Positions 1-53,264 of a stretch of DNA of 53,264 bases are shown here, one piece after another (positions within the stretch are counted from its first letter, which is position 1; each line of letters begins with the position of its first letter). Position numbers and translations under genes: made by a program. The notes beneath the pieces are model-generated. The model saw only the letters and a program-made list of their open reading frames with translations, was not told where the DNA came from and searched no databases. This DNA is from a virus (taxonomy: Duplodnaviria > Caudoviricetes): positions 1 through 53,264 of IMG/VR virus record IMGVR_UViG_3300032315_000109; one strand, given 5' to 3'.

Positions 1-14
1 CCAGTTGTTGATCC
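1..14. repeat. Terminal direct overlap (circular assembly), copy 1
   Basis: CCAGTTGTTGATCC at 1-14 is identical to 53251-53264, and the reading frame is continuous across the join. Confidence 0.85.
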
Positions 15-3000: not shown

Positions 3001-3030
3001 CGTGGTGTAATGAAAAAAATGAGAGGTTGA
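1..3030 (+). CDS. C-terminal part of giant internal virion/ejection polyprotein (continues from 51472 across the origin; about 1602 aa in total)
   Basis: Frame 1 is open from position 1 (PVVDPLPKLS) and in frame with the ORF starting at 51472. Helical Ala/Gly-rich ejection-protein-like core with several xxGG motifs and a C-terminal beta-rich module. Confidence 0.8.
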   Translation, partial: PVVDPLPKLSEEAVIAATDLGRKYARPMQDLYNYGSRRAHQFFTNGQNYARNDGSIPVTDGSTTSTTTPTPAPTFNLNNKLSGDFLSVKKFLRQRGFSEGGIAHMQEGGVPPESVVRLKPIRSSDSVNRARAFFGQGMGMSIGDEAEALYRKYLTDEGSNKSYGQLVDEIRSDYRRFSEENPEQQMAFELSGGIAPTVGAMLLPGGQAAAGANTARMANMFTKTPLRRAATGAGASGAVSGFNAGEDTLSNRLGSATESGLTSTVLGPVVGKAGQLALRGGKGAINLAKRPFQIGDNYLEQQAMDKVLAKMRQDGITPREAVGRIANDRGYNPTTRPVGTRPDTRLMDVSQGLTDLAETVTQRPGGGRTAMVEDMKNRVRGTKGRVTQMANEALAGNKAYFKEVSDLTKDLRSKADTAYQAAYSFGDVSDPRIMGILDTPEFKRAYQEIMKTNQIKKANAVALGEDPSQFDMKQIYRVKPGQNPDSPILDLELTDVPDVRTLDNIKQGIDTVIAKGFASDDKISRDAANALKQLKNTYVSIIDEAVPAYKVARNQYKGDIEIIEALETGRNQYSKMLPDEAMQYVSTLSDAEKQALRVGYAQNFATKIGESKNSINAAEQIIGAENERLRLRALFNSDAEYKVFENALMAESRNFRNAGQVVANSATERRAMGRKEFENNDAVGEILDATRGGVTSTVLSILRKAPSLFKNEKIAEKVSKILSTGTPQEINSILKQMEKRAVGFSKSAKTNERVGYAGAKGTGRASGQTPIAASYEEPAPEELPSAIDPSSEGALDPSESVVFDSPEMEQQDMEEPEQVEVPMEMQRYRGGAVRGYAEGGSAREANYVSDILDRMDVSAYADQMQQGKNRSKFMMGRLGYRQPLADNRQLSGGLSGNAVEYEGEDNRGNKYQGSKSGLTGADLAYEDEKNRLAVKYATPQGENKLSFQALEYARKLANNKGNVGGRYSRISPEGMRRDPQVEVFYNRQFKNGGAVNQKAMRGVMKKMRG

Positions 3031-6000: not shown

Positions 6001-8344
6001 CTTGCCATTCATTCAGGACTTTATTCGTTCTGGTAAATGGGGCGCTATTGGCGACATTTCTAACACTGGTCTAAGGTCAGCAAGAAGCGTTCTTGGTGAA
6101 GGTGTGGTTAATGAATTGCGTAAACGTGGTGAATATGTTCCACCAGTTATGGGATTTGATGAGGCTGTCAAGTTCCAAGAAATGTACAACCCAGAAGCAT
6201 TTAAAGGCGTTACTAGCATAGATGATTACAGAAAAGTATGGGACAAGGGCGGCATGGGAGGTGATGGCTATGCAGAGGGTGGCTTAGTTGAGGATGATAA
6301 CAACTTGATGTCATTAGTTGACGAACATTTTTTAAATCAGCCAATGGCTTTTGGTATTGGTGGTATCGCTAAAAAAATAGCTGGCAAAGCTGCAAAGAGC
6401 TTAGAGAGTCAATTAGATGACTCTGTTGAAAAACTTCTTGATGCCCATACTGCTGCAAAAGCAAAGCCAAAAGCTAAAGCTAAATCAAATCCTGATGATA
6501 AATTTTTGCCTTTAGATTTGCCTAGAGCGCGTCGTAGCAAACAGGAAATTCAAAGTGAAGCAGAACGAGTTTCCCGTCAAATAATGGGTGAGCATGTTCG
6601 TGATCCTAGAAAGCCAAATGATTCTGCAAACCTTGCTGATAGATCAATGGCAGAGGTTGAAAGATTAAAAGGAATTAATTACACCTTAGAGGACATAAAA
6701 GACCTACCAGAGCCAATTATTATTGATCCTAAATTAGGTGACATTAACATAGCCACTGTTGGTGATATTACTGTTGCTGACAAACGATTAGTTGATATGA
6801 ATGGCTACCCAATTGAGTCAGTCCAACAGGGTGGCCCGTTCTTTGGTTTGGGCAAGCTTCGCCAGATGGGTGATGAGGATTTATGGTGGGCTTCTGAACA
6901 TCAAGCGGCTAAAAACTTTCAAGCAAGAGTGGATGAGATAGCTAATTATTTTGGAGTTGATAGGTTAACAGCTCAACATTTGGCAATGGGTCAAAGAGCT
7001 AATAACTTTGCTATGCATTTTGCTGATGCCAATTTAAAAGCAATCAATACTTTCGGTGCGCCAGAAGAAGGTATTGAGGGCATGAATAAATTAATTCGTG
7101 AAGGCTACTCATTAGCAGACAAAAAAACAGGAGAACGGAAATACTTTGCATGGCCTGACTTCCCCGGAGTCGAAAACATTGATGAGGCTTATAAGTATTT
7201 TAGACAAGACCCAGAGGCGAGAAAGTGGTTTAACGACCGCATGAAAAAACCATCAGTAACAGACAAGTTTGGTCTTCCAAATGGGTTGGACATTCAATAT
7301 GCAATTAGTGATGAAGTTCTGCGCAACATGGAAAAAAATCTAACTGGTCGTTCAGTTGGAGAGGTTTATAGAGGCTCTGGATTAAAAGACACTGCCAATC
7401 ATGGGACATATGACACAGGCATCAAGGGTAGGTTTCTTGGTAGATCAAAATACCCAATACCTGTAAAACTTAGTTACTCTGATGCATATGACTACACAGC
7501 AGCTAGAAAGCGCCCAAGTGATGTAACTGGCACTTTGCAAAAAGTAGCTCCTCATCAAATTGTTGATGATCAGTATTTAAATGAAATTGGAGAGTTTAAT
7601 TACTTAATCAATAAATACACAGGCAAGCGCAAGGGTGGCTTAGTTGATGATGATGACAAAGAATTAAGCCAAGAATATTCTGCCATACAAAGATTGCTTG
7701 GCAAGTATGCATACACCTTGGACAAACATAAAAGGTACAAGAGCGAAAAATACTCTGGCAAGGATGATGAGGTTGTTTCTCGTCGCAAGCCTTTTGATGA
7801 AATGACTGTACCGATGCCCGGAGACTTTAGGGGGAACACAATCAAGACTCCTTTTGGCGAAAGGTACAAGGATGACGAGTACAAACAAAACAATATGCCA
7901 GAGACTAATGAGGATGATATTCAGCGCAAGAAGGAGCTGCGGTACTACCAGAAGGGTGGCAGAACTACTGCCAAAGGCCGTGTTGAGCGCAAAATGTATG
8001 ACCTTGATGCTAATGAGCCAAATCGCATGGGAATTGCTCCCTATGGCTTGCGATATGCCCTCTCAGCAAGAGAAATGCCACAAGCCAAGGGTAAGGGCTA
8101 TATGGGTGAAATGCGTGGCTCTGAGGGGGTTGTGACGGAATATTCTTTGGATGACATGGATTTGGGTGCTTTCCCAAGTGTTACACCTAACCAGCCAAAT
8201 GAAAACCTTGATGAAATCAATCGAGGTAAGGTAAGTCATAGCACATATCAGTTAGCAAAAAAGTATGCTGCCATGCGTAAAAAAGCTGGGAAGAGCGCAT
8301 TTGCCCAAATGGACGAATTACGCTATCCCCAGCCTCAAGATTGA
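3032..8344 (+). CDS. Large polyvalent virion protein (1770 aa) with ADP-ribosyltransferase (ART-PolyVal-like) and PcfJ-like domains
   Basis: LYHGT...FFSDD...YA...NPY...DSVI...KVKSAIGNRGTYD (ART-PolyVal pattern); EGDIMRHCVG...IYSLRD.KGEPHVTIEV...EIKGKAN (PcfJ pattern); last gene of the virion operon. Confidence 0.8.
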   Translation: MGKKKLLTEALEGALSKLPKGSLSSQAKVAREMEQEAADQAALYTAQPISNKTGKDAIAQAKQTLSAPKSKKPLTKEQFQNQYVQHIDLRGREGNAEENAKSIMEGGFRRGVNANAYTPFSGLPHRDVVSAKFQPQEGDFVYLAPKGQWVTTPNGVKIKEGFKPEPHEVIRVTDPNMSMYEHYLANFDKPQKGGKEKFLEPSMVKQRLYHGTGSDISEFRPNSFFSDDPKIAAMYAKSQHRAVEGSGPNIIPVDVQFENPYFHDENQARKQGKNFAQIIAPDAPAKGRLQEALRILREKGHDSVILQNFDDIGGRQNQYIALDPSKVKSAIGNRGTYDLNDEDITKAKGGLVHLAKGGVLHLAKGSQEFPVGKYYRDEATIGPLKPVRPVASFAGDFLQGTHDFVSKPFGYPNPPMEMFSELMTVPAWARTLKDYGNGFSLTTGAGQTTKLTPDAEEAALTLVPLIGPAAKTLSKVGRKVIKEGAPYAANQAVNLMEKYGVSPTMNVIKPKGGNWSTESSAINSLKIKRPADKSDPVKVLRDHDKYYNPSLLKTFTEEGLTNAANKRQKLVNQVNVNEWIDKKLNNYLKNEMATPEDSVRLGIERRYEEAQKIKATNDAKLARMRDAIDKRKAEGKDTTLSERDYEAAVEKANEENIFANRSISHMTAPEEGWKPSFGNNYVSDELAFKRNTAGYPEEGMGKNEASKTWEYISDSSIIPVKAGSIPDNSYSLIRDPWITKVAEKDPNTPIYNLDDAWIRHDAEFSHMIDELQEAMSPTSVLPQNLRISEKDLAKMTVDDVSALSGKISAWRDIQKVKTNKEIANNPATFTFKEYTENNPKGVSWKQIKRPEGYSDEEAEKYVRAATQYEGDIMRHCVGGAGHCDPLLDGEVEIYSLRDAKGEPHVTIEVSAKPDPRVKGNTPDDFYLSLPMEEMAKVPPKPRVTNSSDMEQVYWNRAIVQSPQYQEWLKSRPREILEIKGKANAKPKDEYLPFIQDFIRSGKWGAIGDISNTGLRSARSVLGEGVVNELRKRGEYVPPVMGFDEAVKFQEMYNPEAFKGVTSIDDYRKVWDKGGMGGDGYAEGGLVEDDNNLMSLVDEHFLNQPMAFGIGGIAKKIAGKAAKSLESQLDDSVEKLLDAHTAAKAKPKAKAKSNPDDKFLPLDLPRARRSKQEIQSEAERVSRQIMGEHVRDPRKPNDSANLADRSMAEVERLKGINYTLEDIKDLPEPIIIDPKLGDINIATVGDITVADKRLVDMNGYPIESVQQGGPFFGLGKLRQMGDEDLWWASEHQAAKNFQARVDEIANYFGVDRLTAQHLAMGQRANNFAMHFADANLKAINTFGAPEEGIEGMNKLIREGYSLADKKTGERKYFAWPDFPGVENIDEAYKYFRQDPEARKWFNDRMKKPSVTDKFGLPNGLDIQYAISDEVLRNMEKNLTGRSVGEVYRGSGLKDTANHGTYDTGIKGRFLGRSKYPIPVKLSYSDAYDYTAARKRPSDVTGTLQKVAPHQIVDDQYLNEIGEFNYLINKYTGKRKGGLVDDDDKELSQEYSAIQRLLGKYAYTLDKHKRYKSEKYSGKDDEVVSRRKPFDEMTVPMPGDFRGNTIKTPFGERYKDDEYKQNNMPETNEDDIQRKKELRYYQKGGRTTAKGRVERKMYDLDANEPNRMGIAPYGLRYALSAREMPQAKGKGYMGEMRGSEGVVTEYSLDDMDLGAFPSVTPNQPNENLDEINRGKVSHSTYQLAKKYAAMRKKAGKSAFAQMDELRYPQPQD

Positions 8345-8393
8345 TGTACTATTTCGAGGCGGGAAACCGTACTAACTAGTCTCTCTACCTTAT

Positions 8394-8420
8394 GCCCCGC
8401 TCCCCTGCGGGGCTTTTTTT
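8394..8420 (+). terminator. Rho-independent terminator at the convergence of the late and early operons
   Basis: GCCCCGC-tcccct-GCGGGGC followed by T7. Confidence 0.85.
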
Positions 8421-37835: not shown

Positions 37836-37837
37836 TC

Positions 37838-38153: not shown

Positions 38154-39749
38154 ATGGGCAAAAATATTAAGTATGGTGAGTTTACTTTTAACAAGCCAAA
38201 CCCTCGTCCAGCCGTAAAAGGCTATGCATTTGGTGGTGCTACTGAACCAGTCGCCGCTCCTATGGCTGCTAAAAAGCCAATGCCAACTCCTGCTCCTCTT
38301 GACCCCGCTATGCAGCGCCAAAAAGAGAATCAAGCGGTTATTAATAAAGCAAATGCAAATCCTAATAGAAAAGGAAGCCCGCTTCTAATTGATCCAGTTG
38401 CGATAAAAGCTGCGACTGATAGGAACATGGAGATTAGGAAAGCTACTGATGCTAGACATAAAGCAGAAGCTATAGCGAATAGAATACCTCCTAGTAAAGA
38501 CCCATATTCAGCATTAAAACGTAGCATGGATGCTATACAGGATCGTAGCAGTGCGCCTATAGCAAGACAAAAAGGCGGCAAGGTTGGATTGTGGGACAAC
38601 ATCCATGCAAAAAGAGAGCGTATTAAAGAAGGCTCTGGTGAGAAAATGAGAAAAGCTGGCTCTAAAGGCGCTCCTTCTGCACAAGATTTCAAAAACTCCG
38701 CTAAAAAGATGCAAGAAGGCGGTGAGGTAAAAGGTTATGCGGCAGGTGGTATGTATGACTTTGATGATGCACCAATTCAACGAAGGAATGCCAAGGCAAA
38801 AGCTACAAAATTAAAGTTAGCTGAAGACGCAAAAAGAGAAGCTGCTGAATCTAGAAGCCGATATGAAGAAGGTCAAGGTAAGGCAAATTTACTGCCAAGC
38901 CCTGTAAGAATGAAAGAAGGTGGAGAAGTTCAGGGTTATGCGTCAGGTGGTATTTTGTCTAAAGCATTAAAAATGGTTGAAAATATGCGTGGCAGCCAAG
39001 ATAGCCAACCAACAGATACACAACCATCCTTAGTTAAAGATAATTTAAGTAGTGCAATGCAAAAAATTCAACCAAAAATTGGTTTGATTTCTTCTGCGCT
39101 TAGGGATTCCAATCCACAGCCAGCTCAATCCCAAAATATGGGTAATATAACTAATGCATTGCAAAGATTTTCTCCGAGTTTTTCACAAAATCGTGGTTTT
39201 ATTGGAAGGGCGCTTGCTACCAATCCGCAGCCAGCTCCAGCTCAAAATTCTAGTAATGTAACTAGAGCTTTACAAAGTATTTCCCCAAAATTTTCAAAAG
39301 TTCGTGGTTTGATTGGAAGATCACTTCCTTCGAATACTGGGTTAAAAGAAGGTGGTAGTGTTTCAAAAGATAATCCTAAAGCATCAAAAAATGCAAAATC
39401 TATGGAAAGCTCAGCTAAAGACAAGGCTCAAGACAAGGCAATGATCAAAAAAGCTATGAAGCAGCATGATCAGCAAGAGCATAAAGGTGGTAAAGGTACT
39501 GTTTTAGAGCTTAAAAAAGGCGGCAAAGCTCCAGTTAAAGGTGTAAAGCTAGTTGGCATGAAGCGAGAGCCTGAAGCTGTTATAAAGAAAGAAATATCTT
39601 TGCTTAAAAAGGCTGGCGCTCCTGCAAAGATGATTAAGCATGAAGAAATTGAAGCTATGTCTCCAATGTCATCCATGGGTGGTATGCGCAAAGGTGGGTC
39701 TGCTATGAAAAAAGGTGTTCCAACCTTTAATCGCACCCCTAAATGCTAA
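38154..39749 (+). CDS. Basic low-complexity modular virion protein with 9-10 xxGG motifs
   Basis: YAFGG, RQKGG, MQEGG, YAAGG, MKEGG, YASGG, LKEGG, LKKGG, MRKGG; AAGGA RBS. Confidence 0.8.
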   Translation: MGKNIKYGEFTFNKPNPRPAVKGYAFGGATEPVAAPMAAKKPMPTPAPLDPAMQRQKENQAVINKANANPNRKGSPLLIDPVAIKAATDRNMEIRKATDARHKAEAIANRIPPSKDPYSALKRSMDAIQDRSSAPIARQKGGKVGLWDNIHAKRERIKEGSGEKMRKAGSKGAPSAQDFKNSAKKMQEGGEVKGYAAGGMYDFDDAPIQRRNAKAKATKLKLAEDAKREAAESRSRYEEGQGKANLLPSPVRMKEGGEVQGYASGGILSKALKMVENMRGSQDSQPTDTQPSLVKDNLSSAMQKIQPKIGLISSALRDSNPQPAQSQNMGNITNALQRFSPSFSQNRGFIGRALATNPQPAPAQNSSNVTRALQSISPKFSKVRGLIGRSLPSNTGLKEGGSVSKDNPKASKNAKSMESSAKDKAQDKAMIKKAMKQHDQQEHKGGKGTVLELKKGGKAPVKGVKLVGMKREPEAVIKKEISLLKKAGAPAKMIKHEEIEAMSPMSSMGGMRKGGSAMKKGVPTFNRTPKC

Positions 39750-44144: not shown

Positions 44145-44584
44145 ACTTATCTCCAAACTTCACGCTAGAAGAGATGACCGCTAGTGAAACAGCGGAGCGT
44201 CATGGTATTGACAATACACCTGATAATGATGTGTTGATGAACTTGCGTCGCCTAGCTTTATTTTTGGAAGAAGTGCGAACTGTTGTTGGCATGCCATTAC
44301 GCATAAATTCTGCATTTCGCAGTGTAGAGGCCAACCGCCTAGTCGGAGGAAAACCTACCAGCCAACATTGCCTTGGGGTTGCAGCAGACCTTAAAGTAAA
44401 AGGTATGACTCCCAATGAGGTTGTATCTGCAATCATAAAAGCAGGTTTGCCATACGATCAGGTGATAAGAGAATTTGACTCATGGACTCATGTGAGCATC
44501 CCAAACACTAAAGATGCGAAGCCTAGAAAAATGGCTCTCATTATTGATAAAAAAGGTACAAGACCTTTTAGCAAGGAGAAGTAA
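44141..44584 (+). CDS. Endolysin, peptidase M15A family
   Basis: LSPNFTLEE, INSAFR, SQHCLGVAAD, WTHVS. Confidence 0.88.
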   Translation: MNLSPNFTLEEMTASETAERHGIDNTPDNDVLMNLRRLALFLEEVRTVVGMPLRINSAFRSVEANRLVGGKPTSQHCLGVAADLKVKGMTPNEVVSAIIKAGLPYDQVIREFDSWTHVSIPNTKDAKPRKMALIIDKKGTRPFSKEK

Positions 44585-45237
44585 TGCCAGTAGCAATGAC
44601 ATTCCAATCACTAAGAGATGATGTAAGAAATTATCTTGAGCGTGGAGCTTCTGCTGCTACAGACCCAATAGTCTATGAGCAGATACCAAAGCTAATTAAC
44701 TTCGCTGAGCGTAGGATTGCTCGCGACATAAAGATTCAAGGATTTCAAACTGTTGTTACAACTGCTATGCAAGCTGGAGTTGCTGTTATTGCTAAACCAG
44801 ACAGATGGAGAGAAACAGTATCTATAAATATTGGTACTGGCGCAGGTTCAAATAATAGGCAATTATTATTTACTCGTAGCTATGAATATTGCAGAACGTA
44901 TTGGCCTAATGAAACTGCTACAGCGCAGCCTGTATTTTATGCTGACTATAATTATCAGCATTGGGTGTTTGCCCCTACTCCTGATGTGGCATATCCGATT
45001 GAAATTGTTTATTACGAGTTACCACAATTGCTTGATGAGGGAAATCAGCAAAACTGGCTAACAAATTTTGCTCCGAATGCATTGCTTTATGGAACTTTAC
45101 TTGAAGCTACACCATTCTTAAAGAATGATGAGCGCATTCCTGTATGGCTTAATTTTTATCAAATGTCTATTGATTCATTGAATACTGAAGACATGAAAAA
45201 AATTATAGATAGATCGACTACAAGGCAAGAGGCTTAA
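44584..45237 (+). CDS. Head-tail adaptor / tail tubular protein A-like
   Basis: IPKLINFAERRIAR...APTPD..Y....YY...NWL....P.ALLYG.L.EA.PFLKNDER. Confidence 0.7.
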   Translation: MPVAMTFQSLRDDVRNYLERGASAATDPIVYEQIPKLINFAERRIARDIKIQGFQTVVTTAMQAGVAVIAKPDRWRETVSINIGTGAGSNNRQLLFTRSYEYCRTYWPNETATAQPVFYADYNYQHWVFAPTPDVAYPIEIVYYELPQLLDEGNQQNWLTNFAPNALLYGTLLEATPFLKNDERIPVWLNFYQMSIDSLNTEDMKKIIDRSTTRQEA

Positions 45238-45239
45238 TA

Positions 45240-46367
45240 ATGACAACATATACTAATATTTTTGGCGGTACAAACATTGCTTCTTCTGATGTTTCTTATG
45301 CATCTTATAATTTGACATCTTTTGATGTAGATTTAAGTTGGCCTTTAGAATCTAATGCTGATGTCCAATTAGCCACTTCAATAATAGATGTATTTCCAAG
45401 TGCAACAGGAAGAATAATTTATTTACCGCCAGCAACTGAAGCCTCTGTTGGAGCTACAATTTTATTTAACAATGTTGGAGGAGAGCAATTTAGTGTAAAA
45501 GATAGGGCTGGTAATTTAATAGTTGCACCAATTCCGGGGACTATTTGGCAGATATATTTAATATCTAATACTACTACTGGTGGTGTTTGGAGAGCATATC
45601 AATATGGTGCTTCATTATCTGTTGCCAATGCTGCTGCTTTAGCTGGTACTGGAATTATTGCGCTTGGCTCTGTATTGTCTCAATCAATGCCAATCTCAAC
45701 GTATTCATCAAACTATACTTTATTGATACCTGATCGTGCTAACACCTTTTTATGGAATGGTGGAGCTGGCGTATTTACATTACCAGAAGCAGTCCAAGCT
45801 GGAAACAATTGGTTTGTACAATTTAAAAATGGCGGCTCAGGAACTGTTTTAGTTTCCACTATTGGTGCAGATTTAATTGATGGGTTTACTTCAATCTATT
45901 TGCAGCCACAAGATTCTTGTATTGTAATGACTGATGGACAAAACTATTACACATTGGGTCTAGGTCAAACAGCAAGCTTTGCTTTTGACTACATATCAAT
46001 TAATGTGGCTGGCTCTGGAAACTATACATTAACTGGCTCTGAATTAAATCGTATTTCTTATAACTTCACTGGTTTGTTAACTGGCAACAGAACTATTATT
46101 GTACCGAATACAGTACAGCAATATTGGGTAACAAATTCAACCACAGGTGCTTATACCTTAACAATAAGAACGACACTAGCATCTGGCGTTGATATTAATC
46201 CTAATACCGCATCAATTTTGTACTCTAATGGAACGCAAGTTAGGTTTGCAGATAGTAGTGGCGTTGGATTCCCTATTTCAATTTCTCAGGGTGGAACTGG
46301 CGCTACATCAGCGGCTGCTGCTGTAATTAATTTAGGCTTAAACCCAGTTGATGGTGGAGGCTTCTAA
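45240..46367 (+). CDS. Tail structural protein
   Basis: Beta-rich; FTGLLTGNRTIIVP motif; located between the adaptor and nozzle genes. Confidence 0.7.
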   Translation: MTTYTNIFGGTNIASSDVSYASYNLTSFDVDLSWPLESNADVQLATSIIDVFPSATGRIIYLPPATEASVGATILFNNVGGEQFSVKDRAGNLIVAPIPGTIWQIYLISNTTTGGVWRAYQYGASLSVANAAALAGTGIIALGSVLSQSMPISTYSSNYTLLIPDRANTFLWNGGAGVFTLPEAVQAGNNWFVQFKNGGSGTVLVSTIGADLIDGFTSIYLQPQDSCIVMTDGQNYYTLGLGQTASFAFDYISINVAGSGNYTLTGSELNRISYNFTGLLTGNRTIIVPNTVQQYWVTNSTTGAYTLTIRTTLASGVDINPNTASILYSNGTQVRFADSSGVGFPISISQGGTGATSAAAAVINLGLNPVDGGGF

Positions 46368-47998
46368 TGGCTGCTAAGCCTGTCAGGATAATTTCTAAAG
46401 CGGGTATTAAACGCGATGGAACTAAATTTGAGGGTGACTATTACGTTGATGGACAATGGGTTCGTTTTCAGCGTGGGTTGCCTCGTAAAATTAATGGGTA
46501 CAGAAATGTAACCGATTATCTAGCAGAGATTAGTCGTGGAATGAAGTCATTCACGCAAAATGAATCTACATACATTCATTCTGGCGGCACTACATTTTTA
46601 GAAAAATTTACGCTTGACGCTGATGGACTTTCAGGTATTGTCTATGATAGGACACCTGCTACATTAAATAGCCAGTTAGATAATTCATGGCAGTTTGATG
46701 TTTTGTATGATTCAATCAGTCTTGTCCCAAGCAATAAGATTATTGCCCAAGCAGCTCCAAACCTTAGCTCTTTGTACAACTCTATATCTGGACAGGTTTT
46801 TTATGGAGACATGCAGGAAAATGACCGCCTTATTGAGCTTACATTGCCTGAAGGTGTTTCTGCTAGTGGTGGTATTTGTGTATTACATCCATACCTAACT
46901 ATTTTTGGAACTGATGGTTCATTAGGTTGGTCAGTCCCCGGAAACCCTGCTGACTTAGTTGGTGAAGGTTCTGGTAATGCTCGTATTGCTGCTCAAAAAA
47001 TTGTAAGAGGTTTGCCCCTTCGAGGTGGCCCGGGTAATTCTCCTTCAGGATTGTATTGGTCAACTGATGCCGTAATCAGAGCTTCATTCGTTGGTGGACA
47101 GCAGGTATTCCAATTTGACACCATAACTTCAGCATCATCAGTTTTATCTCCCATGTCAATAATTGAATATGACGGAGTTTATTTCTGGGTTGGTGTTGAC
47201 CGTTTCTACATGTTTAATGGTGTTGTAAGAGATGTAGAAAATGTCCTGAATATTAACTATTTCTTTGATGGATTAAACAGGGAATACGCTCAAAAAGTAT
47301 TTGCTTACAAAGTCCCTAGATTTGGTGAAATTTGGTGGTGCTATCCAAGAGGTGATGCTGTAGAGTGTAGCCACGCAATTATTTACAATGTTAAAGAGAA
47401 TACTTGGTACGACACAGAATTACCCAATGGGGGGCGTTCTGCGGGCGAATTTATCCCTCGTTATGCAGTCCCATTCCTTACTGGTGTTGAATATAACTTT
47501 AATAGACCAGCAGCCGACATCCGTCAAACTGAGGATGGATTAATAAGAACGACCATTTCTGGCGATATTAGAACTTTGTTCCAATCAAATAACTACAAGC
47601 TTTGGGAGCATGAGGTTGGTGTTAATGAGATTGATGTTAATTTCGTAATACCTATTCAGTCTTATTTTGAAACTGCCGACATGAGTATATTGATAACAAA
47701 TGGACAAGATAAGTCATTGCGTTGTGAATTATTAGAGCCAGATTTTGTGCAGTCTGGAAACATGACTGTGCAAATTACTGGTAGATCAAATGCTAGGTCA
47801 AAAGAAATAACTGGTGAGGTAAAAACCATAGTTGCAGAACCAACAACTCCTTATGAGCAGGTTGTATATTTTAAAGATATACGAAGAGAGATGCGGTTCA
47901 GGTTTGAGTCTAATACTTTGAATGGCGACTACCAAATGGGTCAGGTAATTGCTCACATAGAAGAAGCTGATGGAACTGTGTTAGGAGCAACAAATTGA
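46367..47998 (+). CDS. Tail nozzle / tubular protein B (P22 gp10-like)
   Basis: WVRFQRGLPRKING, FYMFNG.V, FGEIWWCYP, IIYN..ENTWY; beta-propeller-like pattern. Confidence 0.7.
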   Translation: MAAKPVRIISKAGIKRDGTKFEGDYYVDGQWVRFQRGLPRKINGYRNVTDYLAEISRGMKSFTQNESTYIHSGGTTFLEKFTLDADGLSGIVYDRTPATLNSQLDNSWQFDVLYDSISLVPSNKIIAQAAPNLSSLYNSISGQVFYGDMQENDRLIELTLPEGVSASGGICVLHPYLTIFGTDGSLGWSVPGNPADLVGEGSGNARIAAQKIVRGLPLRGGPGNSPSGLYWSTDAVIRASFVGGQQVFQFDTITSASSVLSPMSIIEYDGVYFWVGVDRFYMFNGVVRDVENVLNINYFFDGLNREYAQKVFAYKVPRFGEIWWCYPRGDAVECSHAIIYNVKENTWYDTELPNGGRSAGEFIPRYAVPFLTGVEYNFNRPAADIRQTEDGLIRTTISGDIRTLFQSNNYKLWEHEVGVNEIDVNFVIPIQSYFETADMSILITNGQDKSLRCELLEPDFVQSGNMTVQITGRSNARSKEITGEVKTIVAEPTTPYEQVVYFKDIRREMRFRFESNTLNGDYQMGQVIAHIEEADGTVLGATN

Positions 47999-48222
47999 TA
48001 ACTTTACCTATTATAATAGGATTAAGAGATTGGGCTGATCAGATCGTTCTTGACCTGAATATTTATGGCAATTTGCCGCAGCTTGATGATGAGACAAAGT
48101 GGCAGGAGTGGGCTGTCTCTTTATGTGCAATTGCTGACATAACTTCAAAAAACCCACCTGATGCACTTTCTTTCTCAGACTGGCGTGAATGGGCTAGTCG
48201 TTTTGCACAAATAATGGCATAA
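47995..48222 (+). CDS. Small Trp-rich protein
   Basis: DWA...WQEWA...FSDWREWA. Confidence 0.7.
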   Translation: MITLPIIIGLRDWADQIVLDLNIYGNLPQLDDETKWQEWAVSLCAIADITSKNPPDALSFSDWREWASRFAQIMA

Positions 48223-48914: not shown

Positions 48915-50450
48915 ATGGGATGGGTAAAATTTAGAAATAAAGTAACCAAACCTTTTAAAGAAGCTGCTAAGTGGGTTGAAGATTCAGCAAAAGATTTAGG
49001 TAGGGGTATAAGAGAGTCAGTAAAAGATGTAGGTAATTTTGTTGAAGACACATGGAAAGATGCTGGCAAACTAGTAAATGACTATGTTCTTAAACCAATT
49101 AAAGCAGACCCATTAGGTTTTATTATTACTGCGGCAGCGGCTTCATTTGGTATTCCGTTCATTGTTGGCCCGGGTGCTATTGCTTCTGGACTTGCAACTA
49201 CAGCAGTTAATCTTGCTCAGGGTAGAGATTTTGATGATGCTCTAAGGGCAGGTGTTACTGCTGGCGTGTTAGATTTTGGAGTAAGCGAAGGTATAAATGC
49301 TTTATCAAGCGCTCCAAAACCATTTGGTTCGTCGTTAGGTGCTACTAGTAAAGCTCCAACATTTGCAGACATATTTAGTGATGCCTCAACACCTTCAACA
49401 GCTTCAGCAGTTGATACAGCAAGCGATAATTTCAATAAACAATTATCACTTGATAATGGCATAGGTAATGATTTAATGTCAGCAGCGCCAGCTAATGATC
49501 AATTTAGCTCATTGCTAGACCCAAATCGTCCAATAGATTTTGATCCGTATAAGCCTATTAAAAATGAAACTTATTTAACTGATGATGGCATGTTAGGTTT
49601 TGATAAAGGTCAATATGCTGCATATACAGAACCAGCACCAAGACTTTCAGATATATACCCAGAACCAAAAAATTATTTAAGCGATATAAGCACAAATGAA
49701 TTAGGTGCTTTACCTGATCAAGTTCCTTATCCAGCACCAATAGTAGATATGGGAACAGAAGCAGCAAAACAAGCTTCAGATGGTGCTTATCATTGGTGGG
49801 AAGACCCAGTAGGTAGCGTTGGTAAATACTCAAAAGACATGATTGGTGTTGATGTTACCAATCCATGGATTGTTGGTGGTGCTACTCTTGGATTAAATTA
49901 TTATTCTAAGAAAAAACAAGAAGAAGAAAATGAAAGACTTTTAGAAGAGCAAAGAAGAAATGATCCAGCAAATAGTCCTACATTTACTACTCCTATGCAG
50001 CAATATCGAATGCAGAGAAACAGGAATAGATACACTGGAGACTTAACAAGATATGGTGAAAGACGTGATGGGAATACAGGTGAGTTTAATTTTTACGACC
50101 CAGCAGTATATGTTCCTGTAAGTTCAGACCCTACAATACAAGCAGCAACTGGTGGTCAAATTAGAGCGCCTTATTACACCTATGGCAATGCTCCACAGGG
50201 GTATCGTGCTGGTGGTTTGAGTTCTTTGTCTGATGGTCGCTCTGATGATATACCTGCCGTTCTTTCTGATGGCGAGTATGTGATGGATGCTGAAACAGTT
50301 GCATTACTTGGCAATGGATCAACGGATGCTGGAGCTAAGCAGTTAGACCGCATGAGAACATCTTTAAGAAAGCAAAAAGGAAAATCTTTAGCTAAAGGTA
50401 AATTTTCTCCTAATGCTAAATCTCCATTAGCTTATTTACAAAGAGGCTAA
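48915..50450 (+). CDS. Internal virion protein with C-terminal SDDIPAVLSDGEYV domain
   Basis: Glycine-zipper hydrophobic segments; AATGG and YRAGG motifs, then the GEYV domain at about 50232-50380. Confidence 0.8.
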   Translation: MGWVKFRNKVTKPFKEAAKWVEDSAKDLGRGIRESVKDVGNFVEDTWKDAGKLVNDYVLKPIKADPLGFIITAAAASFGIPFIVGPGAIASGLATTAVNLAQGRDFDDALRAGVTAGVLDFGVSEGINALSSAPKPFGSSLGATSKAPTFADIFSDASTPSTASAVDTASDNFNKQLSLDNGIGNDLMSAAPANDQFSSLLDPNRPIDFDPYKPIKNETYLTDDGMLGFDKGQYAAYTEPAPRLSDIYPEPKNYLSDISTNELGALPDQVPYPAPIVDMGTEAAKQASDGAYHWWEDPVGSVGKYSKDMIGVDVTNPWIVGGATLGLNYYSKKKQEEENERLLEEQRRNDPANSPTFTTPMQQYRMQRNRNRYTGDLTRYGERRDGNTGEFNFYDPAVYVPVSSDPTIQAATGGQIRAPYYTYGNAPQGYRAGGLSSLSDGRSDDIPAVLSDGEYVMDAETVALLGNGSTDAGAKQLDRMRTSLRKQKGKSLAKGKFSPNAKSPLAYLQRG

Positions 50451-50453
50451 AAA

Positions 50454-51452
50454 ATGGCAAATGTTCTTGACAAGGTAACTGACTTTCTTTTTGGAGGTAC
50501 TACACCTCCATCAGTTAAGACTTATGGAACTACAACTACCACAACACCTGCTTGGTATAACGACTACACACAGGCTTTAATTGGTAAGGCTAATGCAATT
50601 GCATCAGAACCATATCAAGTTTACGATGGAAGTCGTATTGCTGGGTTTACTGATAATCAAAATTTGGCATTTGCATTAACACCTGAAGCTGCTAGTTCTT
50701 ATCTTCCATATATGAATCAAGCAAGTAATATATATGACAAGCTTGGAAATACTAGTGCATTAAGCAAAGCTCAGCCTTATTTAAACAATTCAGCTCAAAC
50801 TAGTTATGCAAATGTACAAAATTACATGAACCCATACATGGATTCGGTTACAAATCGAATCGGTCAAATGGCTCAGCGTAATTTGTCTGAAAACATTATT
50901 CCAACAATTCAGAATCAGTTCATTGGTGGTGGATCGTTTGGTGGTAGCCGTAGCGGTACAGCTATGGGTAAAGCAATGCGTGATATATCTGCTGATACTT
51001 TAGCGCAACAAACTAGCGCATTAGCTAGTGGCTACAATCAAGCAATGGCTCAAAGCCAAGCTGATTTAACAAGACAAGGACAACTAGGTCAAATAACTGG
51101 GGCTATATCTCAAGCAGACCTTACTAGACAACTTCAACTTGGTCAGAATGTTGGCGCTCTTGGTGCATTGGCGCAGTCACTTGGTCTTAATGAGGCTGCT
51201 GCATTGGAAGCTGTTGGTCTTACACAGCAAAATCAAAATCAGAGAAACCTTGATTTGGCTTACAAGAATTTTGCTGATCAAAGAGATTATCCAAGAGAGA
51301 ATATTTCATTCTTAAATAATGCTATTCGTGGCTTATCTATCCCTACTACATCAACTGCAACTGGAGTAGGCCCTGCATCTTCCGTAGGCCCATCTGGATT
51401 ATCACAGCTTGCTCAGGCTGGTGCGCTTATATATGGTATTGGTAAGAAGTAA
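50454..51452 (+). CDS. DNA ejection / internal virion protein
   Basis: YMNPYMDSV, GSFGGSR, Gln/Gly-rich helical repeats. Confidence 0.7.
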   Translation: MANVLDKVTDFLFGGTTPPSVKTYGTTTTTTPAWYNDYTQALIGKANAIASEPYQVYDGSRIAGFTDNQNLAFALTPEAASSYLPYMNQASNIYDKLGNTSALSKAQPYLNNSAQTSYANVQNYMNPYMDSVTNRIGQMAQRNLSENIIPTIQNQFIGGGSFGGSRSGTAMGKAMRDISADTLAQQTSALASGYNQAMAQSQADLTRQGQLGQITGAISQADLTRQLQLGQNVGALGALAQSLGLNEAAALEAVGLTQQNQNQRNLDLAYKNFADQRDYPRENISFLNNAIRGLSIPTTSTATGVGPASSVGPSGLSQLAQAGALIYGIGKK

Positions 51453-51471: not shown

Positions 51472-53264
51472 ATGGCTTATCAACCTCGTAGAAATAATAA
51501 CTTGGCAGAGTTTGATTTTGAGAGCTTAATTTCTCCTCAACAGGATGAAAATACTAAGCTACTTCAAAGCGACATGCCAACTGATAATGATCTATTAGCC
51601 CTTAATCAAAGGGCTGAAGTTGCTGAAGAACCAAATGCTGATTTAATAAGCCAACAAACTTATGTAAGCAATCCAACATTTGCTAATAAGGCTAGTCAAG
51701 CTGGCGAGCGTTATTTATCGCAAAAGAAAATAGAAAGAAGCACAACTGCTGAGATTTTAAAAAAAGCACAAGAGGCTTTACTTGCTAGATCAGAAGAAGG
51801 CTGGACTCGTGGTGATTATTTTAGACTTGCTGCTGCTCTTGGTAAGCCAACAAGGTTTGGTACATTTGGTGAAGAATTAGGTAATGCTGCTGAAGTTATG
51901 GCAAGTGTTAGTGATCGTCAAACAAAAGCTAAGCAAGACTATGAAGCACTGAAATTAAAATACCAATTACAAAATGCAGCTCAACCTGCTGAAGACGCTG
52001 AGCAAGAATTTGGTGTATATACCAAACTTGCAACTGGTAGAGGTCAATCTGCATCTAGACTTCGCCAAATGCAAATAGAGCGTGATGCGCTACCAATGAA
52101 TGACCCAGCTCGTGCTGAGTTGGATGCCGCTATTCAGTTATACACTACTGAAAAGAAAACAAAAGCTAATACCCCTTCTGGTCAATTTGTTGAATTAGTA
52201 AACATAGCTAATGATTCTAGTCAGCCACAAGCAGTAAGAGAAGCGGCTGCTGCAAAGATAAGAAAAGAAACATACATTCCTCCTCAGAAAGCACCAAAGG
52301 GTGAGCCGCCTCCAGTAGTTAATTTAACTGCTGCTGAAAACACTGGTATGCGTTTAGGTGTTCCTGTCATGATTGACAGCCCATTTTCTAATGTTGATCA
52401 AAAAACTCAACAGCAATTAGTATTGCAAGCAAGCAAACGTGCGCAAGCTGAAATAGCAAAAGTTGAAGAGGCAGCAGACAAAGCTCAATTCTCTCAGCAA
52501 AAGATGGCGCGTTTTCTTAAACTAAATAAAGAAAACCCAACCAACCCTCTTACTGGAAAACTACCTTCCTTCAGAGCTGCTGCTCAAGAAATGGATAACA
52601 TTACTGCTGAGCTTGCACCTGAAAAAAGATTGGAAGGAACAGGTTCAGTTTCTGACTTTGATGCTAAGCAGTTGCTTAAAGCGGTTGTTAACCCAAGCAA
52701 TTCTTATGAGGCTAACAAAAATATTGGCTTGGCATGGGATGCTTATGCAAAAACAATAAAAGAGAAAAGTAATTTCTTGCGTAACTACTTTACTACCAAT
52801 AAAACTTTGGATGGCTCTAGTCAGGCATGGATGCGCTACATGAATGCGAATCCTATTTTTGATCCAAAGCAGCCCGGTACTTTTGCACCTAACAAAAATC
52901 GTAAGACTTACAAAGACTTTTTCTATCCACCAAAGCCACAGGGTAAAGCTGAGGGTGGCATAATTAATTATTCTGATGGTGGGCAAGCTTCTACTCAACA
53001 CAGCAATTACTATGAACAGAATCAGCCAGATTTATCTGTGTTGATGAATAAGTATGCTAAAGGTGGAGAAGTAAAAAATAAATTGTATGACAAGTATGGT
53101 CGTCAAAAATTAGGTTGGGGTGGTAAAGGCACAGCCATAGCATACGCACAAGCAAACCCTACTGCACCAGCTCAAACTGGTGGCGGTTTTATGGGTGACT
53201 TTACTACAAAACTTGTATCTACTATAAAAGATGCACTACCAAAAAATGATCCAGTTGTTGATCC
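51472..53264 (+). CDS. N-terminal part of the giant internal virion polyprotein (runs off the end, continues at 1..3030)
   Basis: ATG at 51472 (MAYQPRRNNN...) after AAGG; no stop before the window end; GSVSDFD and KAEGG/YSDGG/YAKGG motifs. Confidence 0.8.
   Translation, partial: MAYQPRRNNNLAEFDFESLISPQQDENTKLLQSDMPTDNDLLALNQRAEVAEEPNADLISQQTYVSNPTFANKASQAGERYLSQKKIERSTTAEILKKAQEALLARSEEGWTRGDYFRLAAALGKPTRFGTFGEELGNAAEVMASVSDRQTKAKQDYEALKLKYQLQNAAQPAEDAEQEFGVYTKLATGRGQSASRLRQMQIERDALPMNDPARAELDAAIQLYTTEKKTKANTPSGQFVELVNIANDSSQPQAVREAAAAKIRKETYIPPQKAPKGEPPPVVNLTAAENTGMRLGVPVMIDSPFSNVDQKTQQQLVLQASKRAQAEIAKVEEAADKAQFSQQKMARFLKLNKENPTNPLTGKLPSFRAAAQEMDNITAELAPEKRLEGTGSVSDFDAKQLLKAVVNPSNSYEANKNIGLAWDAYAKTIKEKSNFLRNYFTTNKTLDGSSQAWMRYMNANPIFDPKQPGTFAPNKNRKTYKDFFYPPKPQGKAEGGIINYSDGGQASTQHSNYYEQNQPDLSVLMNKYAKGGEVKNKLYDKYGRQKLGWGGKGTAIAYAQANPTAPAQTGGGFMGDFTTKLVSTIKDALPKNDPVVD
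53251..53264. repeat. Terminal direct overlap, copy 2
   Basis: Identical to 1-14. Confidence 0.85.

What the first reader, a model, noticed from the sequence alone, without database searches (positions are those of the whole stretch)
50142..50450. SDDIPAVLSDGEYV domain as candidate protease or reader for the xxGG motifs
Seen: a single domain DGRSDDIPAVLSDGEYVMDAETVALLG.G....GAK.L directly follows AATGG and YRAGG. Established (from memory, to be verified): siphophage tape-measure C-termini, e.g. lambda gpH (FATGG...GEFVF...YATGG), carry a similar motif plus a GE[F/Y]V domain, and that C-terminus is proteolytically processed during assembly. Inference: a podovirus-like phage with no tape measure reuses the domain in trans on about 27 motif copies in other genes, with the Glu of GEYV (codon 50274) possibly catalytic. 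The segment also loosely resembles the N-terminal blocks of Hint domains, without the Cys nucleophile.
Basis: partly seen in the sequence, partly recalled or inferred. Interest (0 to 1): 0.82.

Follow-up and report, generated by a model that had tools for sequence, protein, structure and literature searches.

The report
Tape-measure-like tail end of ejection protein
The flagged stretch is the very conserved last 80 residues of a short-tailed phage's DNA-ejection protein, a module shared with the tape-measure proteins of long-tailed phages, and it looks like a docking or processing segment rather than a protease.

Summary
ORF 48915-50450 (511 aa) ends in AATGG, YRAGG and GRSDDIPAVLSDGEYVMDAETV, and the Glu codon sits at 50274 as stated. 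There is one copy in this circular 53-kb podophage genome.

The module is widespread: 8,495 representative proteins match at E<=1e-3, and 144 of the best 150 carry it at their C-terminus. No Pfam or NCBIfam family covers it. It is homologous to units inside siphophage tape-measure proteins: Douge gp16 at E 6.7e-10, Faja gp19 in two copies, and 34 of 34 family members hitting a tape-measure PHROG. Lambda gpH shows the same pattern, but the match is not significant.

The gene opens the ejection-protein operon, just after the nozzle gene.

The protease or reader reading is not supported:
- No peptidase family or confident fold was found (pLDDT 53-54).
- 19 of 64 related phages, and cultured Caulobacter phage GB2A, have the domain but no motifs in downstream proteins.

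The xxGG motifs themselves are real: 25 against 4 expected. They sit at domain boundaries of two giant cargo proteins. The mapped T5 tape-measure cleavage (R1127|AEGG) falls exactly on such a motif.

Most likely this is a fold-on-binding anchor module with an adjacent hinge or processing site.

The parts
48915..50450 (+). 511-aa ejection protein (gp14/outer-membrane-channel-like position) carrying the module at its C-terminus
   Evidence: ORF. It is the first gene after the nozzle and a 75-aa and a 217-aa ORF, and is followed by a phrog_4287 'DNA ejection protein' (3e-23) and two giant proteins. The same order is seen in Caulobacter phage GB2A and MW202545.
49110..49214 (+). hydrophobic Gly/Ala-rich segment (residues 66-100), probable membrane-inserting part
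   Evidence: Kyte-Doolittle 19-residue mean reaches 1.96. This is the second conserved region of the family in alignments A1 and A3.
50142..50156 (+). xxGG motif 1 (AATGG, residues 410-414)
   Evidence: G413 and G414 are nearly invariant in alignment A3.
50202..50216 (+). xxGG motif 2 (YRAGG, residues 430-434), the cis motif of the unit
   Evidence: G-G is present in 143 of 150 representatives. 93 of 99 domain proteins hold at least one [FYM][AS]xGG.
50235..50321 (+). conserved core GRSDDIPAVLSDGEYVMDAETVALLGNGS (residues 441-469), the part shared with tape-measure proteins
   Evidence: Invariant columns in A2 and A3. Aligned to Douge TMP 958-1006 and 1418-1449 and to Faja TMP 908-944 and 1237-1294. 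pLDDT is below 50.
50322..50447 (+). C-terminal helix and Lys/Arg-rich tail (residues 470-511: TDAGAKQLDRMRTSLRKQKGKSLAKGKFSPNAKSPLAYLQRG)
   Evidence: Predicted helices at 470-493 and 504-508; blocks 471-490 reach pLDDT 71-74, the highest in the domain. Conserved to the last residues.
46367..47998 (+). nozzle / tail-hub protein (543 aa), candidate docking partner
   Evidence: PDB 9nwi_Y E 5.8e-16 and 8zkk/8zkm 'nozzle gp16' 3e-13. Found in 95 of 104 related loci at 55% mean identity, about as conserved as the module.
44584..45237 (+). SU10-type head-to-tail adaptor (217 aa)
   Evidence: PDB 7z47 adaptor E 3.6e-7; phrog_2941. Found in 88 of 104 loci at 61% identity.
47995..48222 (+). 75-aa acidic, Trp-rich protein conserved beside the gene (possible chaperone or partner; untested)
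   Evidence: Found in 93 of 104 loci at 47% identity. No family hit. A 78-aa gene holds the same place in GB2A.
50454..51452 (+). 332-aa DNA ejection protein
   Evidence: phrog_4287 E 3e-23. Found in 98 of 104 loci.
51472..53264 (+). 5' part of giant protein A (1602 aa once the circle is closed), with xxGG motifs at residues 492-533
   Evidence: A 14-bp terminal overlap closes the circle and the frame stays open. Motifs.
1..3030 (+). 3' part of giant protein A; xxGG pairs immediately before (residues 690-702) and after (1423-1433) its conserved core, and near the C-terminus
   Evidence: The double motif before the core is present in 8 of 8 aligned orthologues. The core, about residues 700-1350, is found in 43-48 of 104 loci.
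3032..8344 (+). giant protein B (1770 aa), a polyvalent cargo protein with an ADP-ribosyltransferase domain flanked by xxGG motifs
   Evidence: PF18760 ART-PolyVal, residues 207-336, E 4.3e-12, 47.4 bits against a cut-off of 31.2. Motifs at 191-195, 346-358, 509-513, 1080-1084, 1532-1536 and 1639-1643.
38154..39749 (+). 531-aa Lys-rich protein with seven xxGG motifs by the regex
   Evidence: phrog_16028 module at residues 143-185, E 4.7e-20.

Best explanation
The flagged segment is not an enzyme. It is the C-terminal module of the first ejection protein of a short-tailed phage, the protein in the gp14 / outer-membrane-channel position.

The module has three pieces:
- one or more [aromatic/Met]-A-x-G-G turns;
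- a near-invariant 30-residue core (G-R-S-D-D-I-P-A-x-L-S-D-G-E-Y-V-x-D-A-E-T-V-A-L-L-G-N-G-S) that is homologous to units inside tape-measure proteins of long-tailed phages;
- a helix plus a basic tail.

I read it as a fold-on-binding anchor. By analogy with the C-terminal fragments of tape-measure proteins (T5 pb2C, lambda gpHC, Douge gp16), it would hold the C-terminus of the ejection protein in the exit channel, at the nozzle or portal axis, of the DNA-filled particle. It would be released first at infection. The xxGG turn directly upstream would be part of the same unit, acting as a hinge and possibly as a processing site.

The many other xxGG motifs in this genome are separate copies of that short turn. 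They sit at domain boundaries of ejected cargo proteins and are not substrates of this domain.

Shown: homology to tape-measure units, gene position, conservation pattern, absence of a predicted autonomous fold, and motif placement. Inferred: docking in the nozzle, order of release, and any cleavage.
For: (1) Homology to tape-measure units.
- Family profile against PDB sequences: Douge TMP gp16, E 6.7e-10, two stretches.
- Faja TMP: two copies, domain E 4e-9 and 1.7e-11 in a four-sequence search. The second copy lies about 55 residues from the C-terminus and aligns on into the helix.
- 34 of 34, 32 of 34 and 29 of 34 members hit TMP families phrog_6090, phrog_3547 and phrog_25241. Eleven of the 17 PHROGs matched are TMP families.

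(2) Position.
- The gene follows the nozzle and precedes a phrog_4287 ejection protein and two giant proteins.
- The order is the same in GB2A and MW202545, where the last gene of the set is a lytic or SLT protein.
- There is an N-terminal hydrophobic segment.
- This matches the OMC/PT/IMC ejection-operon scheme described for Pa223 (passages of bioRxiv 10.1101/2025.06.11.659172).

(3) Conservation.
- The module is at the extreme C-terminus in 144 of the best 150 representatives (my reading of the table).
- Residues 426-511 are found in 104 of 104 related loci at about 62% identity. The rest of the protein is detectable in only 2-19 loci.
- The nozzle (55%, 95 of 104) and the adaptor (61%, 88 of 104) are conserved to a similar degree.

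(4) No autonomous fold.
- AF2 mean pLDDT is 53.1 for the domain with 41 sequences and 54.1 for the whole protein with 55 sequences. The core 412-469 is below 50; only blocks 471-490 of the C-terminal helix reach 71-74.
- The equivalent regions are unresolved in cryo-EM of Douge, where only 1658-1699 was modelled (passages of PMC13033339), and of lambda, where 818-849 was resolved and about 690-817 was not (PMC12617516).
- In T5, lambda and Douge the last 30-40 residues of the TMP sit as a trimer in the hub.

(5) No dependence on motifs in other proteins.
Against: - No direct evidence that the segment sits in the nozzle or binds anything.
- The same core occurs internally and twice in Douge and Faja TMPs. 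A pure C-terminal plug role does not explain that.
- The core is conserved across virions with unrelated hub proteins, so it may recognise something common to all of them instead: the host envelope, DNA, itself, or a protease.
- A low pLDDT is weak evidence against an enzyme.
- xxGG motifs are 3.7-fold enriched in downstream ejection proteins across the family (0.54 against 0.14 expected per 1000 aa). Some functional tie between the motif and this gene set does therefore exist.
- Supplementary tables and figures of the T5, lambda and Douge papers could not be seen.
Confidence: 0.45

Rival explanations
1. Processing-site model. The A-x-G-G motifs are proteolytic cleavage sites, cut just before the Ala, used by tape-measure and ejection proteins. 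The GE[FY]V unit next to the cis motif positions or triggers that cut, either by autoprocessing on assembly or by presenting the site to a host protease. This would release a roughly 80-100-residue C-terminal fragment comparable to T5 pb2C and lambda gpHC. In this phage the same site would cut the giant cargo proteins into their domains.
For: - T5 pb2 is cleaved after R1127 (passage of PMC10038345). In the T5 record residues 1121-1135 read ANSFVPR|AEGGMMYP, and pb2 holds only two [AS]xGG sites in 1219 residues, so the coincidence is about 2 in 1218.
- Lambda gpH is cut in its Gly-rich C-terminal region, and 'the precise site' and 'how cleavage is catalyzed' are unknown (PMC12617516). A cut before A734 of FATGG would give 79.8 + 12.5 kDa, against the quoted values of about 78 and about 14 kDa.
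- In giant B the motifs flank the ART domain (191-195 and 346-358, against domain residues 207-336). In giant A they bracket the conserved core, and the pair before the core is kept in 8 of 8 orthologues although the surrounding linkers vary.
- Polyvalent proteins are predicted to be processed (passages of PMC5512222).
Against: - There is one mapped site in one phage.
- T5 and lambda have no profile-detectable GE[FY]V unit, so the unit is not needed for the T5 cut.
- No protease family was found in 39 ORFs scanned, other than the endolysin.
- The lambda masses fit a cut near residue 710 slightly better (77.7 kDa).
- Motifs at domain boundaries are equally expected of flexible linkers.
Confidence: 0.2
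2. Post-ejection model. The conserved core acts after release from the virion, by binding a common component of the host envelope (peptidoglycan, membrane or a periplasmic factor) or by oligomerising into the trans-envelope channel. This would explain why channel-forming tape-measure proteins and podophage ejection proteins share it.
For: - The core is shared by virions with unrelated hub and nozzle proteins, and it occurs internally in TMPs.
- 8 of 34 members also hit an 'endolysin' PHROG (phrog_971, best E 3.5e-5).
- The carrier proteins have membrane-type hydrophobic segments.
- gpH* and TMPs are proposed to form the periplasmic channel (PMC12617516 and PMC13033339).
Against: - No match to any known cell-wall-binding or membrane domain.
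- The hosts span very different envelopes (Actinobacteria, Proteobacteria, cyanobacteria), which argues against a single host ligand.
- No structural prediction supports an oligomer.
Confidence: 0.2
3. First reader's model. The domain is a protease or a reader that acts in trans on the roughly 25 xxGG motifs of other virion proteins, with the Glu of GEYV as the catalytic residue.
For: - The motifs are strongly over-represented here (25 against 4.0 expected). They are enriched in downstream ejection proteins of related phages.
- The Glu is present in 148 of 150 representatives.
- No other protease candidate was found in the genome.
Against: - There is no peptidase or Hint family hit and no confident fold.
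- 19 of 64 loci with at least 2000 aa downstream have no motif and 19 more have only one. GB2A has none in seven neighbouring virion proteins.
- Apart from Glu, no polar residue of the core is kept in lambda-type sequences. Glu is Asp in one tandem copy.
- In TMPs each unit has its own cis motif.
- T5 is cut at the motif without having the domain.
Confidence: 0.04
4. DNA-end model. The Lys/Arg-rich tail (RKQKGKSLAKGKFSPNAKSP) binds the leading end of the packaged genome in the exit channel.
For: - There are 11 Lys or Arg residues in the last 50 residues.
- One long homologue was named 'histone H1/5' by its source.
- TMPs are reported to contact the DNA end (passage of PMC13033339).
Against: - The part shared with TMPs is the acidic core, not the basic tail.
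- Nothing here tests DNA binding.
- In long-tailed phages the DNA meets the other end of the TMP.
Confidence: 0.05

Closest known systems
C-terminal regions of siphophage tape-measure proteins (Douge gp16, Faja gp19; by pattern also lambda gpH/gpHC and T5 pb2C)
   Same: - The xxGG turn followed by G-x-SD-x-IPA-x-LS-x-GE-[YFH]-V-x-x-A-x-x-V is the same, with significant profile matches to Douge and Faja.
- The unit lies near the C-terminus, next to Gly-rich or hydrophobic stretches.
- The region is unresolved in cryo-EM.
- The C-terminal fragments of T5 and lambda are cut off and stay in the tail tip.
   Different: - The carrier here is a 511-aa protein of a phage with nozzle and adaptor but no tail tube, so it cannot measure a tail.
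- This family adds a strictly conserved helix and basic tail running to the very C-terminus.
- Lambda and T5 are not significant by profile.
Podophage ejection proteins (T7 gp14/15/16; Pa223 gp56/54/53 OMC-PT-IMC scheme)
   Same: - Operon position after the tail genes.
- A small membrane protein comes first, then a mid-sized protein, then a giant one.
   Different: - T7 gp13-16 carry no GE[FY]V unit. They hold five [ASQRKP]xGG sites in 2,399 residues, none in the aromatic-A-x-GG-hydrophobic form.
- No sequence similarity to T7 or Pa223 ejection proteins was shown here.
Polyvalent proteins of phages and conjugative elements (Iyer et al. 2017, PMC5512222)
   Same: - Giant protein B carries ART-PolyVal above Pfam's cut-off.
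- It lies in the ejected-protein operon.
- Processing into domains is predicted for this class.
   Different: - The paper proposes zincin-like and other peptidase domains as the processing enzymes.
- In the passages returned for 'cleavage', 'linker' and 'glycine' (the last two had 0 occurrences) no xxGG site is mentioned.
- No such peptidase domain was found here.
Viral polyprotein sites of the type (M/L/I)-x-G-G|x cut by adenain-like cysteine proteases (recalled from memory, not from a call)
   Same: A short motif ending in Gly-Gly, repeated in virion-internal proteins. Several copies here have Met or Leu four residues before the end (MQEGG, MKEGG, LKEGG, LAKGG).
   Different: - No cysteine-protease family hit in the genome.
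- The one mapped bacterial-virus precedent (T5) is cut before A-x-G-G, not after G-G.

Membership tests
Tape-measure protein (functional class) | Sequence match to tape-measure protein families | tested here: met
   For the module only. phrog_6090 34 of 34 members, best E 1.7e-9. Douge gp16 E 6.7e-10. Faja gp19 two copies. The matches cover about 35-65 residues, not the whole protein.
Tape-measure protein (functional class) | Long, mostly helical protein whose length sets the tail length, encoded after tail-tube and tail-assembly-chaperone genes | tested here: not met
   - No tail-tube, sheath or chaperone family among 39 ORFs scanned.
- The neighbours are an adaptor and a nozzle.
- In the AF2 model, residues 126-313 are mostly below pLDDT 50 and lack helices apart from a short one at 298-304.
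Pfam Tape_meas_lam_C (PF09718; accession recalled) | Profile match above the gathering score | tested here: not met
   0 Pfam families at E<=1 for the 511-aa protein.
Podophage ejection protein, gp14/OMC-like | First gene of the ejection operon downstream of nozzle/tail genes, followed by a mid-sized and a giant protein | tested here: met
Podophage ejection protein, gp14/OMC-like | Hydrophobic membrane-inserting segment | tested here: met
   Residues 66-100, hydropathy up to 1.96. The segment is conserved in A1 and A3.
Podophage ejection protein, gp14/OMC-like | Present in virions and ejected into the host envelope | not testable with these tools
   Needs virion proteomics of a cultured relative such as Caulobacter phage RW or GB2A.
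Any peptidase family | Profile match or recognisable catalytic fold and residues | tested here: not met
   - No Pfam, NCBIfam or PDB-sequence match to a peptidase.
- pLDDT <50 over the core.
- Candidate Ser of GRSD is S 109, D 14, T 8 of 150.
- No fold search was run because both models were of low confidence.
Hint / intein-like domain | N-terminal Cys/Ser nucleophile block and Hint profile match | tested here: not met
   No Hint family at E<=1. There is no Cys in the segment.
LexA/UmuD-type S24 peptidase (motif G-D-S-M...G-D-x-V recalled from memory) | Invariant Ser nucleophile and Lys base in an all-beta domain; Pfam Peptidase_S24 match | tested here: not met
   - No Pfam hit.
- The Ser is not invariant.
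- Helices, not strands, are predicted after the motif.
Polyvalent protein (for giant protein B) | ART-PolyVal domain above the curated cut-off in a multi-domain phage protein | tested here: met
   PF18760, 47.4 bits against a cut-off of 31.2, residues 207-336 of 1770.

The most novel reading that the evidence does not exclude
A-x-G-G marks the long-sought processing sites of tape-measure and ejection proteins. T5 pb2 is cut at R1127|AEGG. Lambda gpH would be cut at F733|ATGG, and this protein at A410|ATGG or next to YRAGG. The adjacent GE[FY]V unit would be the cis element that makes the cut happen on assembly. This phage would have multiplied the site about 25-fold to release the domains of its giant cargo proteins, including an ADP-ribosyltransferase, either in the capsid or in the host.
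Probability: 0.12. Interest if true: 0.8.

Novelty: new variant of a known kind. Interest (0 to 1): 0.5.

Why it matters
The module is very common: 8,495 cluster representatives match, mostly from uncultured freshwater and soil phages of about 50-60 kb. It has no Pfam or NCBIfam family and no assigned role. Annotation pipelines label its carriers 'tape measure protein' even in phages without a long tail, as in GB2A.

Recognising it as a module shared between tape-measure proteins and podophage ejection proteins ties together two classes of proteins that both leave the virion ahead of the DNA.

The side observation gives a concrete prediction for an old open point. T5's mapped tape-measure cleavage falls exactly on an xxGG motif. 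A 2025 paper still lists the site and the catalyst of lambda gpH cleavage as unknown (passages of PMC12617516). The prediction is that lambda gpH is cut before A734.

The same observation suggests how polyvalent cargo proteins may be cut into their parts.

Tried and rejected
- Complex prediction on three copies of the 110-residue C-terminal piece (alignment A2) returned 'no answer'. I draw nothing from it.
- Fold search was not run. Both AF2 models had mean pLDDT of 53-54, and matches would have been meaningless.
- ESM Atlas look-alikes were only unnamed viral clusters. A crAss cargo-protein cluster at 0.85 is chance level.
- A literature search for the motif strings (FATGG, YATGG, GEFVF, SDGEYV, SNGEFV, LSDGE) found 340 papers. 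None of the 15 listed was about phages.
- A search for mapped tape-measure cleavage sites found only the T5 work and two P1 papers. Passages of one P1 paper, PMC9024508, gave no TMP site; the other was seen only in the listing.
- An 85-sequence alignment failed internally and was redone with 41 sequences.
- Test of 'motif-rich phages lacking the domain': Pelagibacter phage HTVC033P shares the DUF6321 protein and lacks the domain, but it is not motif-rich. It has 2 relaxed motifs against 3.3 expected, and its [FYM][AS]xGG hits are poly-Gly runs. The test was therefore uninformative and that refutation criterion remains untested.
- T7 gp13-16 have neither the unit nor motif enrichment.
- S24/LexA-like, Hint-like and EF-hand-like readings of the acidic core were considered and dropped. 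There were no family hits, the Ser varies, and the spacing does not fit the EF-hand loop (that last point is my own reading).
- My first, stricter motif regex missed forms such as YAHGG and MAMGG. It was replaced by [FYM][AS]xGG.
Full report
**What is there.**
The window is a whole IMG/VR virus record of 53,264 bp. Its first and last 14 bases are identical, so the map closes into a circle. ORF 48915..50450 (+) encodes 511 residues. Its last 102 residues read AATGG (410-414; 50142-50156), YRAGG (430-434; 50202-50216), GRSDDIPAVLSDGEYVMDAETVALLGNGS (441-469), then a predicted helix and a Lys/Arg-rich tail running to the C-terminus. A profile of the family finds this one place only in the genome.

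**How common and how conserved.**
- HMMER against 1.84 billion cluster representatives gave 8,495 proteins at E<=1e-3, 2,431 at E<=1e-10 and 7 at E<=1e-30.
- By my reading of that table, 144 of the 150 listed carry the match within seven residues of their C-terminus. Most are 500-750 aa long.
- In an alignment of the last 120 residues of those 150, the core is almost invariant: GE[YF]V has G 147, E 148, Y 135 plus F 11, and V 146. The Ser of GRSD is S 109, D 14, T 8.
- A word-indexed search found 3,402 relatives of 281-895 aa and 156 of 896-2,555 aa. None of the 120 near-length proteins listed has a Pfam domain. A few of the longer ones carry one (PF00404, PF02095, PF13946). No source name is informative.
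- Pfam (E<=1) and NCBIfam give nothing for the protein.
- IMG/VR holds 313 confirmed places, of which 80 were kept. The 24 places in the species-genome collection all lie on MAG contigs of at most 63.4 kb. These are phage contigs that were binned with genomes, not prophages in isolates.
- Across these 104 loci, residues 426-511 are always found, at about 62% identity. This is by construction, because the loci were fetched with the domain. The rest of the protein is detectable in only 2-19 loci.

**What the module is related to.**
- PHROGs gave weak hits for the window protein, five of six to tape-measure families.
- Scanning all 34 members of a domain-only alignment (A2) made this firm. phrog_6090 is hit by 34 of 34 (best E 1.7e-9), phrog_3547 by 32, phrog_25241 by 29, phrog_5448 by 29 and phrog_17300 by 24. 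Eleven of the 17 families matched are tape-measure families and one is an endolysin family.
- Against PDB sequences, the single sequence hits mycobacteriophage Douge tape-measure protein gp16 (8zdo_S) at E 3.9e-5. The profile hits it at E 6.7e-10, with two stretches at 958-1006 and 1418-1449 of 1699.
- In Arthrobacter phage Faja, a siphophage with annotated tail-assembly chaperones, the tape-measure protein holds two copies. They lie at 908-944 and 1237-1294 of 1348, and the second aligns on into the helix.
- A 294-aa protein of Planktothrix phage Pag-Yong1 has the same plan as the window protein, a hydrophobic N-terminus with the unit at the C-terminus.
- Lambda gpH does read FATGG(733)...GEFVF(754)...YATGG(778). 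hhalign lines up 740-770 with the core, but at E 0.14 and probability 0.44. hmmsearch scores it below zero.
- Only 3 of 34 members reach lambda's own PHROG, phrog_24, best E 0.0023. The lambda link is therefore a resemblance, not shown homology.

**Genomic setting.**
The phage is short-tailed.
- The 543-aa protein two genes upstream matches solved nozzle and tail-hub chains: 9nwi_Y at 5.8e-16 and 8zkk 'nozzle gp16' at 3e-13. 9nwi belongs to Pseudomonas phage Pa223.
- The 217-aa protein at 44584 matches the SU10 adaptor.
- Terminase, portal and capsid proteins were also recognised.
- No tail-tube, sheath or chaperone family appeared among the 39 ORFs scanned in at least one library.

The target gene is followed by:
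- a phrog_4287 'DNA ejection protein' (3e-23);
- a 1602-aa protein that runs across the junction of the circle;
- a 1770-aa polyvalent protein with an ART-PolyVal domain (PF18760, 47.4 bits against a cut-off of 31.2).

Caulobacter phage GB2A and MW202545 show the same order, ending in a lytic or SLT protein. The target has a hydrophobic segment at residues 66-100. This fits the first, membrane-inserting member of a podophage ejection operon, as laid out for Pa223 and T7 (passages of bioRxiv 10.1101/2025.06.11.659172).

**Does it look like an enzyme or a reader?**
- AF2 with 41 sequences gives mean pLDDT 53.1 for the 116-residue piece.
- With 55 full-length sequences it gives 54.1. Residues 412-469 are below 50, and only blocks 471-490 of the C-terminal helix reach 71-74.
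- The most conserved 30 residues of the protein are thus predicted to have no structure of their own. That is what one expects of a segment that folds on a partner.
- The equivalent parts of Douge gp16 and lambda gpH are unresolved in cryo-EM, while the last 30-40 residues sit as trimers in the hub (passages of PMC13033339, PMC12617516 and PMC10038345).
- No peptidase, Hint or other family matches.
- In MW202545 the unit is duplicated in tandem, and the first copy reads GDYV rather than GEYV.

**Do the domain and the motifs go together?**
- In this genome the motifs are real. The relaxed pattern gives 25 against 4.0 expected, with a maximum of 9 in 100 shuffles. Fourteen of them lie in the two giant proteins, against 0.66 expected.
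- Across related loci I could recognise the domain ORF in 99 of 104; five were dropped because my pattern did not find it.
- [FYM][AS]xGG occurs at 2.26 per 1000 aa in the domain proteins themselves (expected 0.36). 93 of 99 have at least one.
- It occurs at 0.54 per 1000 aa in downstream proteins (expected 0.14) and at 0.07 in upstream tail proteins (expected 0.17).
- Of 64 loci with at least 2000 aa downstream, 19 have no motif, 19 have one, and the maximum is 7.
- GB2A has one cis motif (MARGG) and none in seven neighbouring virion proteins.
- So the motif is a recurrent feature of this gene set, but the domain clearly exists and is conserved without trans copies. The cis motif belongs to the unit.

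**Where the free motifs sit.**
- In giant A they lie at 492-533, at 690-702 (directly before the conserved core), at 1423-1433 (directly after it) and at 1582-1586.
- The double motif before the core ([FY]AxGG..hMxxGG) is kept in 8 of 8 aligned orthologues, although the flanking linkers vary in length and sequence.
- In giant B they flank the ART domain, at 191-195 and 346-358 against domain residues 207-336.
- They often come in tandem, 8-9 residues apart (KAKGGLVHLAKGGVLHLAKG; AEGGIINYSDGG).
- This placement fits either flexible inter-domain hinges or processing sites.

**A precedent for processing.**
- The T5 paper maps the tape-measure cleavage 'after R1127' (passage of PMC10038345).
- In the T5 record, residues 1121-1135 of pb2 read ANSFVPR|AEGGMMYP, and the fragment of 92 residues matches the published size.
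- pb2 has only two [AS]xGG sites in 1219 residues. The cut falls exactly on one.
- For lambda, the 2025 Ur-lambda paper states that a peptide of about 14 kDa is removed from the Gly-rich C-terminal region, and that the site and the catalyst are unknown.
- A cut before A734 would give 79.8 + 12.5 kDa. A cut at 710 would give 77.7 kDa.
- T5 and lambda have no profile-detectable GE[FY]V unit. If xxGG is a cleavage site, this domain is not what cuts it.

**Verdict.**
The proposal that it is a protease or reader working in trans is not supported.

My best reading (0.45) is a tape-measure-type, fold-on-binding C-terminal anchor of the first ejection protein, with an xxGG hinge or possible processing site as part of the unit. 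The nozzle, adaptor and a 75-aa neighbour are conserved to a similar degree and are the candidate partners. None of them was tested.

The rivals are:
- a processing-site model with the unit acting in cis (0.2);
- a post-ejection envelope or channel role (0.2);
- DNA-end binding (0.05);

The anchor and processing models are not exclusive.

**Limits.**
- Nothing here shows binding, location in the virion, or cleavage.
- The reverse co-occurrence test, whether motif-rich phages lack the domain, could not be done.
- Supplementary files of the cited papers were closed.

Noticed in passing
window 1-14 and 53251-53264; ORF 51472..53264 joined to 1..3030: The record is listed as linear, but its ends share 14 identical bases. 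The open frame at the 3' end runs on into the 5' end without a stop, giving one 1602-aa protein. The window is probably a complete, circularly permuted genome.
   Followed up: yes
L112 (T5, AY543070) pb2 residues 1121-1135: The published T5 tape-measure cleavage site (after R1127) lies immediately before AEGG, one of only two [AS]xGG sites in the 1219-residue protein. I did not see this noted in the passages of the T5 paper that I read.
   Followed up: partly
window 3032-8344: The 1770-aa polyvalent protein has an ADP-ribosyltransferase domain (PF18760, residues 207-336) and a weak PcfJ-like stretch (867-912, E 0.0028, below cut-off). Only 3 of 104 related loci hold a detectable homologue, so this cargo is variable.
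   Followed up: partly
window 38154-39749 and 37826-38137: A 531-aa Lys-rich protein carries a conserved 43-residue module (phrog_16028, E 4.7e-20) and seven xxGG motifs. A 103-aa DUF6321 protein (PF19846, E 6.5e-25) starts with WHFAKGG. DUF6321 relatives occur in 303 phage records, mostly cyanophages and pelagiphages.
   Followed up: partly
L003 (MW202545) 7282-9201: The domain protein of this uncultured phage carries two GE[YF]V units in tandem. The first reads GDYV, and only the second is followed by the basic tail.
   Followed up: no
window 47995-48222: A 75-aa acidic, Trp-rich protein with no family hit is conserved just upstream in 93 of 104 related loci. A gene of similar size holds the same place in GB2A. 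It could be a chaperone or partner of the basic C-terminal tail.
   Followed up: no
window 27818-28237: A phage-encoded GroES/Cpn10-like co-chaperonin (PF00166, E 6.9e-10) sits between the portal gene and the capsid genes.
   Followed up: no
window 34721-35698 and 32502-34751: A 325-aa extremely Gly-rich protein (PF21722 Gly_rich_2, E 5.3e-8) follows a 749-aa protein built of repeats of roughly 90 residues (SANGFAGTVA..TPAITLSTSITG..GNGTA), presumably fibre components.
   Followed up: no
window 14969-16132, 20188-20787, 16466-17428: The early region encodes a C-5 cytosine DNA methylase (PF00145, E 1.4e-56), a 2OG-Fe(II) oxygenase (PF13759, E 2.5e-19) and a calcineurin-like phosphoesterase.
   Followed up: no
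window 49875-50114 (residues 321-400 of the 511-aa protein): The only confidently modelled part of the protein (pLDDT 77-93 over most of residues 321-400) is a long helix at 317-348 followed by short strands, lying just upstream of the flagged module. Its role is unknown.
   Followed up: no
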